From NCBI RefSeq assembly GCF_988243305.1, contig NZ_OZ547136.1: 64,000 nucleotides of DNA. One strand, 5' to 3'. The position numbers are program-made. Positions 30,001 to 39,000 of the stretch are shown piece by piece (within the stretch, counting starts at the first letter, position 1; each line of letters begins with the position of its first letter).

Positions 30001-33000
30001 CCCGTCACACTCGTAAGGAATGATCTCCTCATCGGTATGCAGGATCTCCAGTCCAGGGACATGCTCACGCAGTGCCATCAGTACCGATGTGCGGTCGACA
30101 TCGGGTAAAGCGCCATCAAGACGCTCTTCGTACAAGATGCTCATGAGTAGGCTTCGCTTTGTTGTGTTGTGTGGCAGCTGATTTTTGCGCGCTGCTTCTG
30201 TGAACAGTTATTAAGCGGGCTTTTCGTTTTCGTCTATCTCTTTAGCTACCGGTCAGACCATTTTTTTTCCAGCTCTGTGACCTTGTCTTGGTTAACTTAA
30301 TGTTAAATTGATGTAACATAATCACTTACGTGATGTGCGTGTTTTGCGAGTTAAGAACAGAAAAATTGGTCCTACCTGTGCACGAGGTCCGGGAATGAAA
30401 GATGAACGTCGCCCTATTTGCGAAGTGGTTGCAGAGAGTATCGAACGGTTAATTATCGACGGCGTATTGAAGGTCGGTCAGCCGCTTCCCTCGGAACGTC
30501 GACTGTGTGAAAAGCTCGGCTTCTCACGCTCCGCACTGCGTGAAGGGCTGACTGTGCTGCGCGGGCGCGGGATTATTGAAACGGCGCAGGGTCGCGATTC
30601 TCGTGTCGCACGGCTTAATCGGGTGCAGGACACCAGCCCGCTAATTCATCTGTTCAGCACGCAGCCGCGAACGCTGTACGATCTGCTCGACGTTCGCGCA
30701 TTGCTGGAGGGTGAATCGGCAAGGCTTGCGGCAACGCTGGGAACCCAGGCTGATTTTGTTGTGATAACCCGCTGTTATGAAAAAATGCTCGCCGCCAGTG
30801 AGAACAACAAAGAGATTTCGCTGATCGAACATGCGCAGTTGGATCACGCTTTCCATCTCGCCATTTGTCAGGCTTCTCACAATCAGGTGTTGGTGTTTAC
30901 GCTGCAATCATTGACCGATCTGATGTTTAATTCAGTGTTTGCCAGCGTAAATAATCTCTACCATCGACCACAGCAAAAAAAGCAGATCGATCGCCAGCAT
31001 GCGCGGATCTACAACGCGGTGTTGCAGCGGCTGCCGCACGTCGCCCAGCGCGCAGCACGCGATCATGTGCGGACCGTGAAAAAGAATCTCCACGATATCG
31101 AGCTGGAAGGCCACCATTTGATTCGCTCGGCGGTGCCGCTGGAGATGAACAAGGTGGGAATGTGAGCCGAGTTTTCACCCTCACCCTAACCCTTTCCCCG
31201 AGGGGCGAGGGATCGCCCCTGCGCTTAACAGGATCTGGTATTAAATCTGCTTTTCATACAATCGGTAACGCTTGTACGGCTCCGCCCCAATGCGTTCCAG
31301 CATGTTATTCATGCCTATATTGGTTTCGAGGATCCATGACATTTCCAGCGCATCGATCTTCCGGCGGGCAAACGGATCGCGTAAGGCTTCAATCAATAAC
31401 AGCGCAATCACCGGGCCGATGCGGCTAAACTGATACTCGTCCCGCACGCCCATCAGCGGTACTCGCGCAGTTCGCACACCGCTGACTTTTAAACGCCACA
31501 GCAATTTTGCCCAGCCGAAGGGAAAGAGCGATCCGTTCAGATCGGCAATCGCCTCGTTGATGTTCGGTAAGCCGACAATAAACGCACAGGGTGCAGAATC
31601 AATCTCGGCGATGTAGATCATATCGTCCGGCACCAGGTACTTAAGCTGATCGCCCATAGTCGCGAACTCATGTTCGGTAAACGGCACAAATCCCCAGTTA
31701 TGCTGCCAGCCAGAGTTGAAAATCTCACGCAGGATCTGCATCTCTTCGGCAAACCGCTGGCGATTGATGCAGCGAATGGTCACTTTTTTGCGCACCTGAT
31801 CCATCAGTTTTTTTAGGGCCGGAGAGAAAGTGAGATCGGTTCGCTGCATCCACCACGCCAGTAAATCAATGCCTTTGTGATAACCCAATTGTTCAATATG
31901 CGCGGCATACCACGGTTTGCCGTGTGGCATCATCGCACAGGGTGGTGTATCGAAACCTTCAATCAGTAATCCGCTTTCCTGATTGATATTCAGGCTGAAA
32001 GGACCGCTGATCTTACTTGCACCTTGTGACTTCAACCACGCTTCCGCTGCGCCAAACAACGCGGCAAAAACCTGCGGATCATCAATGGCGTCAATCATGC
32101 CGAAATGACCGGTATCTTTGCCGTAACGCTCGCGGTGCAAGGTATCGATTTGCGCGGTAATACGCCCAACTATCTGCCCTGCTTTTTTTGCCACCCACGC
32201 CTGCCAGATGATATGGTCCGTCCCCGGATTTTTCGCAGACAAATGCTCGTTGCGTTCAATGAATAAAGGGGGTATCCAGTTTGGATCGTCGGGATAAAGT
32301 GATGACGGAAAAGCGATAAATGCCTTAAGGTCATTTTTATTAATTACTTTTTCAATTTTAATCATCAGCAGATCGCATTCCATAGTTCTGTGGGTAACAA
32401 ATAATTAACGGTGACAAACAGGTTGCAACAGCAACGAACGGCACCTTAATAATCAACCCAATGAATACAAACGACGAATAAATAGCATTTATTAATGATT
32501 ACGATAAGGTCAGAGACTACACAGAAGCGCCACAATGCCTTTTGTCGATTTAAGGCGACCGGACAAGGCTTCTTCTTAATACATTCATAAATTAAATATC
32601 ATTCACAATAAAAACAAAAAAACTCAAACTCATTATTTAAATCAATGTTCATTTTCACACTAATGAAAATACTATCTCATTTATCTTTTATGCCTATATA
32701 ATCCACCGCATTATTGTCATTTTATTTTTGATATCCAATTTTTTCGTGGTGTATATGTCTAATAAAATCTTTACGCATTCCCTACCTATGCGCTATGCCG
32801 ATTTTCCAACGCTGGTTGATGCTTTGGACTACGCCGCTCTGAGTAGCGCCGGAATGAATTTTTATGACAGACGTTGCCAACTTGAAGATCAACTGGAATA
32901 TCAGACGTTAAAAGCGCGTGCCGAAGCTGGTGCGAAGCGGTTGTTATCGCTGAACCTGAAAAAAGGCGATCGCGTGGCGCTGATTGCCGAAACCAGTAGC

Positions 33001-36000: not shown

Positions 36001-39000
36001 CCGGTTATACCGCTAATTTAGGCGTCATCAGCGCACTTGCCGACCATAACGCCGTGGTGTTACTGGATGCCGACAGCCACGCCAGTATTTATGACGCCTG
36101 TTCTCTCGGTGGCGCGGAAATTATTCGTTTCCGCCATAACGATGCTAAAGATCTGGAACGGCGCATGGTTCGCCTCGGTGAACGGGCGAAAGAGGCGATT
36201 ATCATCGTTGAGGGCATCTACAGCATGCTCGGTGACGTTGCGCCGCTGGCGGAAATTGTTGATATCAAACGTCGTCTCGGTGGTTATTTGATTGTCGATG
36301 AAGCGCATTCGTTTGGCGTGTTAGGCGCAACGGGGCGCGGACTGGCTGAAGCCGTTGGCGTTGAAGATGATGTGGATATTATCGTTGGTACTTTCAGTAA
36401 AAGTCTGGCCTCGATTGGCGGTTTTGCTGTCGGTTCGGAAGCGATGGAAGTGTTGCGCTACGGCAGCCGCCCGTATATTTTTACCGCCTCTCCTTCTCCG
36501 TCCTGCATTGCGACCGTGCGCTCGTCGTTAAGAACCATTGCCTCACAACCAGAGCTGCGGCAAAAGCTGATGGATAACGCCAACCATCTGTATGACGGTC
36601 TGCAAAAACTGGGTTACGAGTTAAGTTCACATATTAGCCCGGTAGTGCCAGTAATAATCGGTTCGAAAGAGGAAGGTTTACGCATCTGGCGCGAGCTTAT
36701 TTCGCTGGGCGTTTATGTGAATCTTATCCTGCCACCTGCCGCGCCTGCAGGCATCACGCTGCTGCGCTGTAGCGTAAACGCTGCCCACAGTCGTGAGCAA
36801 ATTGATGTCATCATTCAAGCGTTCGCTACTCTGAAGCAGTAATGTGAGCCCGCTGGGCGCTGCGCCACGGCGGGTTTAATGTTGTCTGTCATACCAATAC
36901 ACCAGGCTCAACGCCACCAGCACAAACGCTACCGGTAAACCGAGCGCGGTAACAGGTGCGCTCAACGCAAATAGCAACCCCAGATTGACCATGATTTGAT
37001 AGCTGATCCAGGTGAGTAAGCCCACGATGACGCCTACAGCGAGACGGCTACCCATCCCTGGCGAGCGCGGGGCGCTAAAGGTAAACGGCACAGCCAGCAA
37101 AATCATCGCCAGGGTCAAGATGGGTTGTCCCAGTTTTTCCCACAGTGCAAGGCGGTATTCGCTGCTGGGTTGCCCGGTTTCCTGCAAATAATGGATGTAA
37201 TGATTAAGTTGACGGACAGAAAAAGTATTTCCCGGCATCGATAACTCTTCAAGATTCATACTGGTGAAGGCCGATTGCCAGGCAAGATTATCTGATGTTT
37301 CCAGCGTTTCTTTGCCATTCAACCATTTTTTATGATTCACACCATGCAGGATCCACGTTTTGTCGTCTTCAATGGAGGCACTGCGTGCAAAAATGTAGGA
37401 TTCGAGCGAGAGATCGTCGCGATAATGAAATATCTCCACGCCCACAGGCTGGCCCTGCTCGTTCAGCGATTTCACCGTCACAAATTCATTACCGCGCCTG
37501 GCCCAAAGCATATTGCCGGTAATGTCATCGTCCTCCCCCAACGCGGTGGCAGTCGATTTGATTTGCAGCGCCTGTTGCTGCAATGGCGACGCCACCCACT
37601 CATCTATCGCGCCTAACGAAACAGTCCACAATATCCCGGCAACCAGCGCCACCAGTGCAATACGGAAGATAGAAAACCCAGTGCTGCGAATGGCGGTAAG
37701 CTCACTGTTTTTCGATAACTGCCCCAGGCCAACAATCCCTCCCAATAAGGCGATAAACGGCGAAAGTTCGACCAGTGTACGCGGTAAGGTCATCAGCACC
37801 ACCAGCACCGCCTGAGTCCAGCGATAACCGCCCGGGCTGACATCATCCAGTTCGTTAATCAGGTTGAAGGTGGTAAAAAGCGGCAGCAATAGCCCTGCGG
37901 CGGCGGCAAAACCGAGAAAGAGATGACGGATTAAATAGCGACTGAAAACATTCATCGGGAAAATTTCTGCAGCAAAGAGAAGTCGCGTGCGACCAGCATC
38001 AGCAGGCCCATTAGCATGAGTCCGGGTACTAACCACAAACCAGGAATGAGGGGAATCGCGCCGTTAGCCACCAGCGTACGGCAGACGTCGCCGCCATAAA
38101 AAATGGCAACAAACAGCAACGTCAGTGGCAATAACGTTGAAAATCGCCCTTGCCGCGGTTTTACCCGACTTAATGAAATGGCCAGCAGCGCCATCAACAA
38201 CGCTGTCAGGCCACGGCTTTGTCGCCATTGCAGTTCGGCATGATCGGCAGGAAAGGCGGAGCGCGCCAGCTCCGTGACCGATTTTGCTTTGCGTTTGACG
38301 TTAGGGCTTTGATCCAGCGGATTCAGATGTAATTGCAGATTACGGTAGATCTGTTCGTTGTCGTCACGCCCCTGATGATCGAGAAGATAGGCGGTCCCGT
38401 TATGCAACATAACGGTCGGTTTCTCAGGTGATGGGTCAACCACATCAACCGAACGGGCGCGGAAAATGCGGGTTCGATTGGCAGTAGAAGTATAAATCAG
38501 CGCGTCAGTCAGGCGATTATTATCCTGATCAACCGTCTGCGAAAGGATCATTCGTCCGTTATCGTTAGTGTTAAATTTCTTTGCCCGCAACTGGCGAACA
38601 TCCAGCTCCGACTGTGACTGTTGCTCCAGTTGATAAATCTGCGCATAAGCCCACGGACGACCATACATCGACAGAAGGGTGACAAAAATACTTAGCGGTA
38701 TCGCCAGATAAAGAACGGCTTTGTACAAGCGTCCCGGACTGCCCCCCGCCGCAGAAATAGCGGTAATTTCCGAGTCGGTATACATCTGCCCTAGCGTCAC
38801 GCCAACTGACACATACAGTCCAACAGGTAACAACATCTCCAGTGCAATCAGCACCTTGTAGAAAACAATATCCAGCACAACATCAAGAGCTAATGTCCCA
38901 TTTGCCGCTTCGGTCAGATAACGCTGTGCGGAGTAGCTGGCGAAAATAAAGATCAGAAAACCGACGATAATCAGCACCAGACGGCGCGTACCACGCATGA

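What the first reader, a model, noticed from the sequence alone, without database searches (positions are those of the whole stretch)
31241..36842. Biosynthetic module with the composition of a bacterial ceramide/amino-lipid pathway (GNAT + FAAL + reductase + ACP + alpha-oxoamine synthase)
Seen in sequence: a GNAT-like acyltransferase (yghO, minus strand) is divergent from a tightly coupled plus-strand operon of a fatty acyl-AMP ligase, an NAD-dependent epimerase-family reductase, an acyl carrier protein and a PLP-dependent alpha-oxoamine synthase, with overlapping start and stop codons. Established knowledge: this same five-protein set (serine palmitoyltransferase, dedicated ACP, ACP-loading adenylating enzyme, epimerase-family reductase CerR, GNAT-type ceramide synthase bCerS) makes up the Caulobacter dihydroceramide pathway; AOS+ACP+FAAL sets also make other amino-lipids and signalling molecules. 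Inference: this E. coli locus, deleted in K-12 as I recall, makes an N-acylated long-chain amino-alcohol or sphingolipid-like lipid. I do not know of experimental characterisation in E. coli.
Basis: partly seen in the sequence, partly recalled or inferred. Interest (0 to 1): 0.85.

Follow-up and report, generated by a model that had tools for sequence, protein, structure and literature searches.

The report
E. coli sphingolipid (ceramide) gene cluster
This is the E. coli sphingolipid (dihydroceramide) biosynthesis locus, which is real and correctly interpreted, but it was already described and partly tested biochemically in E. coli BL21(DE3) in 2022.

Summary
The five genes are present exactly as described. 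They are yghO (minus strand), divergent from a tightly packed aasR(FAAL)-cerR(SDR)-acpR(ACP)-spt(AOS) operon.

Each protein matches its Caulobacter ceramide-pathway counterpart over its full length:
- Spt 53% identity
- AasR 43%
- bCerS 44%
- AcpR 41%
- CerR 33%

The AOS passes NCBI's curated serine-palmitoyltransferase cut-off and fails those for BioF, Kbl and CqsA. The FAAL is the crystallised EcFAAL (PDB 3PBK). YghO models as a tandem GNAT.

Padilla-Gomez et al. 2022 (PMC9386255) named ECD_02850-02854 of BL21(DE3) as cerS/aasR/cerR/acpR/spt. They showed that AcpR carries 4'-phosphopantetheine and that AasR+AcpR+Spt make 3-oxo-sphinganine.

RefSeq already labels the gene spt. About 75% of complete E. 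coli genomes carry the locus. K-12-type genomes lost it through an IS5-associated deletion.

Still open: no native E. coli sphingolipid is reported in the papers I could search. A neighbouring module (a 274-aa protein plus yghQ, yghR, yghS, yghT) travels with sphingolipid genes in several lineages and is uncharacterised.

The parts
31241..32383 (-). yghO = bacterial ceramide synthase (bCerS/cerS) homologue, a tandem-GNAT N-acyltransferase. Homologues in other genera begin at Met7 (32365).
   Evidence: 43.7% identity over 380 aa to Caulobacter CC_1154, E 1e-110. AF2 model is a tandem GNAT. Named aca/cerS ECD_02850 in PMC9386255.
32384..32754 (.). Divergent intergenic/promoter region, 371 bp, 32% GC.
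   Evidence: Consensus promoter and terminator scans found no more than chance. No Rfam family matched.
32755..34479 (+). aasR: fatty acyl-AMP ligase that loads the dedicated ACP (acyl-AcpR synthetase).
   Evidence: NF006624 at 870 bits. About 98% identical to PDB 3PBK 'Fatty Acyl-Adenylate Ligase'. 43.4% identity to CC_1165. AasR-Ec activity reported in PMC9386255.
34476..35390 (+). cerR: NDUFA9-like extended SDR, the 3-keto reductase of the pathway.
   Evidence: 33.4% identity over 287 aa to CC_1164, E 3e-36. Best PDB relatives are NDUFA9/epimerase-family proteins. GATGFIG and YxxSK motifs are visible in the translation.
35422..35670 (+). acpR: dedicated acyl carrier protein.
   Evidence: ACP profiles match. 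41% identity to CC_1163 across the (D/E)S(L/I) phosphopantetheine site. Identical to the BL21-like protein. 4'-PPT shown experimentally for the BL21 protein.
35670..36842 (+). spt: serine palmitoyltransferase, a PLP-dependent alpha-oxoamine synthase.
   Evidence: NF047599 at 599 bits against a cut-off of 500. 374 bits to S. paucimobilis SPT against 175-204 bits to Kbl, BioF and cysteate acyltransferase. 53% identity to CC_1162. H137, D210, H213, K244 and R366 are conserved.
36876..37955 (-). lptG2: paralogue of the LPS-export permease LptG, a probable sphingolipid exporter subunit.
   Evidence: TIGR04408 at 304 bits. Only 146 bits to E. coli housekeeping LptG in the PDB. 23% identity to Caulobacter LptG2. 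Role of Caulobacter LptF2/G2 is described in bioRxiv 10.64898/2026.04.12.717747.
37952..39022 (-). lptF2: paralogue of LptF.
   Evidence: TIGR04407 at 320 bits. 94 bits to E. coli LptF in the PDB. 27% identity to CC_1156.
39053..39613 (-). YtfJ-family protein whose N-terminus reads as a signal peptide (my reading of the translation, not a prediction tool). Its role is unknown. It accompanies lptF2/lptG2.
   Evidence: TIGR01626 at 216 bits. Also found next to lptF2/lptG2 in Pluralibacter.
39625..40449 (-). Conserved 274-aa protein with no recognisable family (here 'hyp274').
   Evidence: No Pfam, NCBIfam or PDB match. Conserved next to yghQ in Serratia, Pluralibacter, Pantoea, Zymomonas and a metagenome contig.
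40449..41798 (-). yghQ: MOP-family flippase, homologue of Caulobacter CC_1166.
   Evidence: 26% identity over the full length to CC_1166, E 9e-44. Weak MOP flippase hit. Truncated by the IS5 deletion in K-12-type genomes.
41844..42602 (-). yghR: P-loop protein with a thymidylate-kinase fold; substrate unknown.
   Evidence: AF2 pLDDT 88.8. Foldseek matches TMPK at TM 0.55-0.70 and 16-20% identity. The dTMP-kinase profile scores 30.6 bits against a cut-off of 83.
42634..43347 (-). yghS: paralogue of yghR.
   Evidence: 39% identical to YghR. dTMP-kinase profile scores 25 bits against 83.
43521..44213 (+). yghT: paralogue of yghR and yghS.
   Evidence: 32% identical to YghR. Adjacent to a bCerS homologue in metagenome contig L011.

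Best explanation
The region encodes the Caulobacter-type ('rhodobacterial') pathway to dihydroceramide. AasR adenylates a long-chain fatty acid and transfers it to the phosphopantetheine arm of the dedicated carrier AcpR. Spt condenses acyl-AcpR with L-serine, with loss of CO2, to give 3-oxo-sphinganine. YghO (bCerS) adds the amide-linked acyl chain, and CerR reduces the 3-keto group. The order of these last two steps is disputed even in Caulobacter. Shown by others for the BL21 orthologues: AcpR is phosphopantetheinylated, AasR-Ec works with AcpR-Ec, and AasR+AcpR+Spt yield 3-oxo-sphinganine in vivo and with labelled serine in vitro. Inferred from homology only: the activities of YghO and CerR. 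Also inferred: the adjacent minus-strand genes export the lipid, with YghQ flipping it and LptF2/LptG2 extracting it, probably using the housekeeping LptB. Also inferred: the locus is poorly expressed in laboratory culture, so the native lipid and its head group are unknown.
For: Gene content and junctions match the description. Curated SPT equivalog is passed at 599 bits against 500, and FAAL at 870 against 600. Best solved relatives are bacterial SPTs at 374 bits. Catalytic His, Asp, His, Lys and Arg are conserved, and non-catalytic positions match Caulobacter Spt rather than Sphingomonas SPT. The five Caulobacter proteins are matched over full length, in the same aasR-cerR-acpR-spt order, and LptF2, LptG2 and the CC_1166 flippase also have counterparts. 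The FAAL is PDB 3PBK. CerR is NDUFA9-like. YghO is a tandem GNAT. Experimental work on BL21(DE3) ECD_02851, 02853 and 02854 and the assignment of ECD_02850 and 02852 are in PMC9386255. Window proteins are 96.7-100% identical to those of a BL21-sized lab strain. dN/dS is 0.01-0.15 for all 13 genes from yghO to yghT. The five-gene region is present at 80% coverage or more in 4068 of 5426 complete genomes. RefSeq names the gene spt.
Against: No paper in the searchable library reports a sphingolipid made by wild-type E. coli. In BL21(DE3), empty-vector cells and cells over-expressing Spt alone showed no 3-oxo-sphinganine, so the chromosomal aasR and acpR genes contribute little under those conditions. 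YghO and CerR activities have not been assayed for the E. coli proteins. The only hint is that spots migrating like sphinganine and ceramide appeared once 3-oxo-sphinganine was supplied. CerR is only 33% identical to the Caulobacter enzyme.
Confidence: 0.9

Rival explanations
1. The AOS is not an SPT. The cluster would make a different amino-lipid or signal, such as a CqsA/LqsA-type alpha-hydroxyketone, a capnine-type sulfonolipid from cysteate, or a BioF/Kbl-like product.
For: All alpha-oxoamine synthases share one fold, and the protein gives significant E-values to BioF, Kbl, CqsA and cysteate acyltransferase. Arg378 of S. paucimobilis SPT is Leu here.
Against: Curated cut-offs are failed for BioF (334 against 426), Kbl (297 against 460) and CqsA-type (221 against 428), while the SPT cut-off is passed. 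Bacterial SPT structures score 374 bits against 204 bits or less for the others. The Arg378-to-Leu change is shared with the proven Caulobacter Spt. BL21 Spt formed 3-oxo-sphinganine from labelled L-serine.
Confidence: 0.03
2. The locus is a decaying or permanently silent remnant in E. coli that makes no lipid in nature.
For: K-12-type genomes lost it without a known phenotype. Other lineages carry partial deletions. No native product is reported. Chromosomal genes did not support 3-oxo-sphinganine synthesis in BL21. The promoter region is 32% GC, a composition typical of H-NS-silenced DNA; that link is my inference.
Against: All ORFs are intact, and dN/dS is 0.01-0.15 across the 13 genes between two strains with dS of about 0.05-0.10. 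The island is intact in about 75% of 5426 complete genomes. The same gene set is kept at about 70-82% protein identity in Serratia, Pantoea and Pluralibacter.
Confidence: 0.1
3. YghO is an unrelated small-molecule or protein acetyltransferase that merely sits next to the operon.
For: Databases call it 'N-acetyltransferase' or 'DNA-binding protein'. It was included in a screen of candidate lysine acetyltransferases. Its closest solved folds are sugar or small-molecule tandem GNATs.
Against: It is 44% identical over its full length to the genetically defined Caulobacter ceramide synthase CC_1154, whose close relatives NCBI now names 'ceramide synthase'. It stays divergent from aasR in four enterobacterial genera at different chromosomal sites. 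The paper's title concerns other, novel acetyltransferases, and yghO appears only in its strain and plasmid tables.
Confidence: 0.04

Closest known systems
E. coli BL21(DE3) ECD_02850-ECD_02854 (yghO/cerS, aasR, cerR, acpR, spt), Padilla-Gomez et al. 2022, PMC9386255
   Same: It is the same chromosomal locus between glcC and yghQ. A BL21-sized lab strain has proteins 96.7-100% identical to the window's, and AcpR is identical.
   Different: Only allelic differences, about 2% at DNA level. I could not fetch the BL21(DE3) record itself. The comparison used strain DL21, whose genome length (4,558,813 bp) matches my recollection of BL21(DE3).
Caulobacter crescentus ceramide genes CC_1165-CC_1162 plus CC_1154 (AasR, CerR, AcpR, Spt, bCerS)
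   Same: The same five protein families in the same aasR-cerR-acpR-spt order, at 33-53% identity. Both loci also hold LptF2/LptG2 paralogues and a MOP flippase.
   Different: E. coli has no counterpart of the head-group genes CpgB/CC_1160, CC_1159, CC_1161, CC_1158, CC_1153 and CC_1152, nor of LptC2. It has YtfJ, a 274-aa orphan protein and YghR/S/T instead. cerS is divergent from the operon rather than downstream of lptG2.
Sphingomonas paucimobilis / S. wittichii SPT (PDB 2JG2, 2X8U)
   Same: Soluble homodimer-type bacterial SPT with conserved catalytic residues; 374 bits.
   Different: Positions N100, Y73 and R378 (S. paucimobilis numbering) differ and follow the Caulobacter sequence. NCBIfam places the E. 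coli enzyme in the 'BetaP' SPT model (599 bits) rather than 'AlphaP' (427 bits).
EcFAAL, PDB 3PBK
   Same: It is the same protein, at 1282 bits and near-identity over 574 residues.
   Different: The structure entry names it only as a fatty acyl-adenylate ligase. Its pathway role as the AcpR loader came later.
LptB2FG LPS extractor and Caulobacter LptB-LptF2-LptG2 (bioRxiv 10.64898/2026.04.12.717747)
   Same: The window's lptF2 and lptG2 pass the LptF and LptG profiles and sit in a sphingolipid locus. The preprint draws the E. coli UTI89 locus beside those of Caulobacter and Sphingomonas.
   Different: Only 23-27% identical to Caulobacter LptF2/LptG2. No experiment has been done in E. coli. Serratia and Pantoea clusters lack them.

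Membership tests
Rhodobacterial (Caulobacter-type) ceramide synthesis pathway | The alpha-oxoamine synthase is a serine palmitoyltransferase by curated profile. | tested here: met
   NF047599 equivalog scores 599 bits against a cut-off of 500. BioF, Kbl, CqsA-type and ALAS models are below their cut-offs.
Rhodobacterial (Caulobacter-type) ceramide synthesis pathway | SPT catalytic residues are present: the PLP lysine, the His that stacks on PLP, Asp/His near the pyridine ring, and the carboxylate-binding Arg. | tested here: met
   H137, D210, H213, K244 and R366 align with H159, D231, H234, K265 and R390 of S. paucimobilis SPT.
Rhodobacterial (Caulobacter-type) ceramide synthesis pathway | A dedicated acpR lies immediately upstream of spt in one operon. 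| tested here: met
   The ACP stop and spt start overlap as TAATG. 41% identity to CC_1163.
Rhodobacterial (Caulobacter-type) ceramide synthesis pathway | An AasR-type adenylating enzyme, homologous to CC_1165, loads AcpR rather than CoA. | tested here: met
   43% identity over full length to CC_1165. FAAL subfamily profile is passed. The protein equals PDB 3PBK. Acylation specificity itself was not tested here; it is reported in PMC9386255.
Rhodobacterial (Caulobacter-type) ceramide synthesis pathway | A CerR-type NDUFA9-like SDR is present. | tested here: met
   33% identity over 287 aa to CC_1164. NDUFA9-family proteins are among the best solved relatives.
Rhodobacterial (Caulobacter-type) ceramide synthesis pathway | A bCerS-type acyltransferase is present. 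| tested here: met
   44% identity over 380 aa to CC_1154. Tandem-GNAT fold.
Rhodobacterial (Caulobacter-type) ceramide synthesis pathway | The cell produces 3-oxo-sphinganine and ceramide. | not testable with these tools
   3-oxo-sphinganine formation by over-expressed BL21 AasR+AcpR+Spt is reported. Native ceramide in E. coli is not reported in the searchable library.
BioF / Kbl / CqsA alpha-oxoamine synthases | The score reaches the curated family cut-off. | tested here: not met
   BioF 333.7 against 426.45; Kbl 296.6 against 460; CqsA-type 220.9 against 428.
dTMP kinase (RefSeq name for yghS and yghT) | The score reaches the TIGR00041 cut-off. | tested here: not met
   25-31 bits against a cut-off of 83.25. 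Only the fold is shared.
Caulobacter ceramide-phosphoglycerate head-group system (CpgABC etc.) | Homologues of CC_1159, CC_1160 and CC_1161 lie in the locus. | tested here: not met
   No BLASTP hit at E 1e-3 between these proteins and any of the 13 island proteins tested, yghO to yghT. The rest of the window was not searched.

The most novel reading that the evidence does not exclude
The functional unit may be a 13-gene island running from yghO to yghT. The uncharacterised genes yghQ (a MOP flippase homologous to Caulobacter CC_1166), yghR/yghS/yghT (three thymidylate-kinase-fold P-loop proteins) and the 274-aa orphan protein would form a conserved module that modifies or translocates the ceramide. 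E. coli would then make a so far undetected complex, possibly phosphorylated, sphingolipid that differs from Caulobacter ceramide phosphoglycerate. The basis is gene association. The module stays with the ceramide genes in Serratia and Pantoea at different chromosomal sites; in Pluralibacter hyp274 and part of yghQ are visible before the fetched stretch ends. It abuts a bCerS homologue in one metagenome contig. It abuts CpgB, CC_1161 and CC_1153 homologues in another. It also occurs in the sphingolipid producer Zymomonas mobilis. I found no paper making this link.
Probability: 0.5. Interest if true: 0.55.

Novelty: already known. Interest (0 to 1): 0.25.

Why it matters
Most natural E. coli strains, though not K-12-type genomes, carry an intact sphingolipid pathway under purifying selection. 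This matters for outer-membrane biology, host interaction and polymyxin or detergent resistance. That point is already in the literature. Three things are still unknown and directly testable: when the locus is expressed, what lipid it makes, and what the co-travelling yghQRST and 274-aa genes do. E. coli genetics would make these far easier to answer than in Caulobacter.

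Tried and rejected
- Pfam, NCBIfam and PDB sequence searches with YghO found nothing. Only the predicted fold identified it as a tandem GNAT.
- Pfam, NCBIfam and a PDB profile search with the 274-aa protein and its alignment found nothing.
- Consensus promoter and terminator scans of 31100-37000 gave no more sites than shuffled sequence.
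- Rfam found no RNA family in 31000-37000.
- I asked whether YghR/S/T could be homologues of the Caulobacter ceramide kinase CpgB. They are not. CpgB is a DAGK_cat/LCB5 kinase, and BLASTP found no similarity.
- The Nat Chem Biol 2022 paper that defines bCerS and CerR is not held, so its family definitions were taken second-hand from later papers.
- Two YghR-family representatives lay on contigs too short to show context.
- An ungapped dN/dS for aasR was wrong because of a one-codon indel. It was recomputed on a codon alignment.

Full report
OBSERVATION

The ORF list shows yghO on the minus strand at 31241-32383. A plus-strand run follows: a 574-aa adenylating enzyme (ATG 32755-34479), a 304-aa SDR (34476-35390), an 82-aa ACP (35422-35670) and a 390-aa alpha-oxoamine synthase (35670-36842). 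The mechanical ORF for the first gene begins at TTG 32728, but RefSeq uses ATG 32755.

The junctions were read directly. FAAL and SDR overlap as ATGA. ACP and AOS overlap as TAATG. A 31-nt gap separates SDR and ACP. The divergent intergenic region is 371 bp at 32% GC, against 50% for the cluster.

WHAT THE PROTEINS ARE

NCBIfam results:
- The AOS scores 599 bits on the curated serine palmitoyltransferase equivalog NF047599 (cut-off 500).
- The AOS scores below the cut-offs for BioF (334 against 426), Kbl (297 against 460), the CqsA-type synthase (221 against 428) and ALAS.
- The first gene scores 870 bits on the fatty acyl-AMP ligase subfamily (cut-off 600).

Against solved structures, the AOS is closest to the SPTs of Sphingomonas paucimobilis and S. 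wittichii (about 374 bits). Sphingobacterium SPT scores 265 bits. Cysteate acyltransferase, Kbl and BioF score 204 bits or less.

An alignment with Caulobacter Spt and S. paucimobilis SPT shows the catalytic set conserved: H137, D210, H213, K244 and R366 in E. coli numbering. At three positions where E. coli differs from Sphingomonas, including Arg378 to Leu, it agrees with Caulobacter.

The FAAL is essentially identical to PDB 3PBK, 'Fatty Acyl-Adenylate Ligase' (1282 bits). The SDR's solved relatives include the NDUFA9 subunit of complex I, as published for CerR.

YghO has no Pfam, NCBIfam or PDB sequence match. An AlphaFold model built on 19 homologues (pLDDT 80.5, pTM 0.81) matches tandem-GNAT proteins such as 2WPW, 5KF1, MshD, NMT and FemX at E 1e-15 to 1e-8.

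DIRECT COMPARISON WITH CAULOBACTER

I fetched the Caulobacter locus using a published cpgB primer, then took the whole cluster through the exact Spt sequence (locus L005).

BLASTP in both directions pairs the proteins as follows:
- YghO with CC_1154 bCerS: 43.7% over 380 aa
- FAAL with CC_1165 AasR: 43.4%
- SDR with CC_1164 CerR: 33.4%
- ACP with CC_1163 AcpR: 41% across the core
- AOS with CC_1162 Spt: 53.2%

The order aasR-cerR-acpR-spt is identical in both organisms. Three further window genes also have partners: lptG2 with CC_1155, lptF2 with CC_1156, and yghQ with the CC_1166 flippase (26% over full length, E 9e-44).

The Caulobacter head-group genes (CpgB/CC_1160, CC_1159, CC_1161, CC_1158, CC_1153, CC_1152) and LptC2 have no counterpart among the 13 island proteins.

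WHAT IS ALREADY PUBLISHED

Padilla-Gomez et al. 2022 (PMC9386255) treat exactly this locus in BL21(DE3). They name ECD_02850 (yghO) as the acyltransferase, ECD_02851 as aasR, ECD_02852 as the reductase, ECD_02853 as acpR and ECD_02854 as spt. They show four things:
- AcpR-Ec incorporates beta-alanine, so it carries 4'-phosphopantetheine.
- Co-expression of AasR-Ec, AcpR-Ec and Spt-Ec gives 3-oxo-sphinganine.
- AasR-Ec works with AcpR-Ec but not with AcpR-Cc.
- Spt-Ec converts labelled serine and prefers acyl-AcpR to acyl-CoA or acyl-AcpP.

They also state that the five genes are clustered only in C. crescentus and E. coli BL21.

A 2026 preprint (10.64898/2026.04.12.717747) shows that Caulobacter LptF2/LptG2 form a complex and bind LptB. 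Its figure draws the E. coli UTI89 sphingolipid locus alongside.

RefSeq already annotates 'spt: serine palmitoyltransferase' here. Window proteins are 96.7-100% identical to those of a BL21-sized laboratory strain. The finding is therefore correct but not new.

DISTRIBUTION AND SELECTION

The five-gene region is found at 80% coverage or more in 4068 of 5426 complete E. coli genomes. The 13-kb stretch from yghO to yghT is found in 4051. Nearly all copies are chromosomal and 95-99% identical.

K-12-type genomes carry yghO, an IS5 element, and a yghQ that has lost its C-terminus. The genes between them are gone. Other lineages show different partial deletions.

Pairwise dN/dS between the window and the BL21-like strain is 0.01-0.15 for the twelve genes that have substitutions; acpR is identical in the two strains and has none. 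This argues against decay.

BEYOND THE GIVEN COORDINATES

In Serratia liquefaciens and Pantoea cypripedii, the yghO/aasR-cerR-acpR-spt unit sits at different chromosomal sites. It keeps yghT, yghS, yghR, yghQ and the 274-aa gene beside it. Pluralibacter gergoviae keeps the 274-aa gene and part of yghQ up to the end of the fetched stretch. lptF2/lptG2 and the YtfJ gene are present only in E. coli and Pluralibacter.

The YghR family has about 1300 representatives. They share the motifs GCDGSGKS, DRYPQ, DGP and RKPDH. The fold is that of thymidylate kinase, at only 16-20% identity. The family scores far below the dTMP-kinase cut-off.

Three more distant loci were informative:
- A metagenome contig has yghR-yghS and yghT directly next to a bCerS homologue (L011).
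- Another contig has the yghR/S-like, yghT-like, yghQ-like and 274-aa-like genes next to homologues of CpgB (41%), CC_1161 (55%) and CC_1153 (L014).
- A third is from Zymomonas mobilis, a sphingolipid producer whose genes are scattered (L010).

These come, with the scattered Zymomonas arrangement described.

Elsewhere the YghR-like domain is fused to MOP flippases and to a GT4 glycosyltransferase. The link to sphingolipids is therefore plausible but not exclusive. I found no paper connecting yghQRST with sphingolipids.

MECHANISM AND WHAT IS UNCERTAIN

Steps shown by others for this locus are AcpR modification, AasR-dependent loading, and Spt condensation with serine.

Steps inferred here are N-acylation by YghO, reduction by CerR, flipping by YghQ, and extraction by LptF2/LptG2 using LptB.

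In BL21, Spt alone gave no product, so the chromosomal aasR and acpR genes appear poorly expressed in culture. Once 3-oxo-sphinganine was supplied, spots migrating like sphinganine and ceramide appeared. This hints that chromosomal cerR and yghO are active. The native lipid, its head group and the inducing conditions are unknown.

VERDICT

The novelty class is 'already known', and interest is low to moderate. The residual value lies in the untested yghQRST/274-aa module and in the missing native product.

Noticed in passing
window 39625-44213: The 274-aa orphan protein, yghQ, yghR, yghS and yghT travel with the ceramide genes in Serratia and Pantoea (in Pluralibacter only the 274-aa gene and part of yghQ fall inside the fetched stretch). 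The module also lies next to bCerS or CpgB/CC_1161 homologues in two metagenome contigs, and it occurs in Zymomonas mobilis. No paper I could find links these genes to sphingolipids.
   Followed up: partly
window 42634-44213 (yghS, yghT); L001 23394-24973: RefSeq names yghS and yghT 'dTMP kinase', but they score 25 bits on TIGR00041 against a cut-off of 83. Only the fold is shared. This looks like over-annotation.
   Followed up: yes
window 36876-39022: RefSeq gives the gene symbols lptG and lptF to these paralogues. They score only 146 and 94 bits against the housekeeping E. coli LptG and LptF in the PDB, so the strain would appear to have two lptF/lptG pairs.
   Followed up: partly
L007 11352-11714; L009 11242-11604: In Serratia liquefaciens and Pantoea cypripedii, a 120-aa DAGK_prokar (DgkA-like) gene lies immediately downstream of yghO. 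From my own knowledge, E. coli DgkA can phosphorylate ceramide in vitro, so this is a candidate ceramide kinase. I did not check whether it is the housekeeping copy.
   Followed up: no
window 31165-31240: A G+C-rich palindromic repeat-like element of about 70 bp (…CACCCTCACCCTAACCCTTTCCCCGAGGGGCGAGGG…) lies between glcC and yghO in this strain. BL21-like and K-12-like genomes have a 6-bp gap there. GlcC is annotated 2 codons longer here.
   Followed up: partly
L003 9172-11366 (K-12-type genome): An IS5 element sits next to yghO. The stretch from aasR to the 274-aa gene is deleted, together with the 3' part of yghQ, which RefSeq flags as 'missing C-terminus'.
   Followed up: yes
hits H18, H20, H43, H44: Other E. 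coli lineages carry different partial deletions. One lacks yghO and the 5' part of aasR. One keeps only yghQ'-yghT. One copy of the region is reported on a plasmid.
   Followed up: no
proteins P0203, P0205, P0249: YghR-like P-loop domains occur fused to the C-terminus of MOP flippases (978 and 1038 aa) and to a GT4 glycosyltransferase (669 aa) in other organisms. This hints at a general role alongside lipid-linked glycan flippases.
   Followed up: partly
window 35670-36842 (Spt residue L354): Arg378 of S. paucimobilis SPT is Leu in both E. coli and Caulobacter Spt. From my own knowledge, Arg378 contacts the serine carboxylate in the Sphingomonas enzyme. Asn100 and Tyr73 also differ in both. 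The AcpR-using SPTs may therefore form a distinct active-site subtype.
   Followed up: partly
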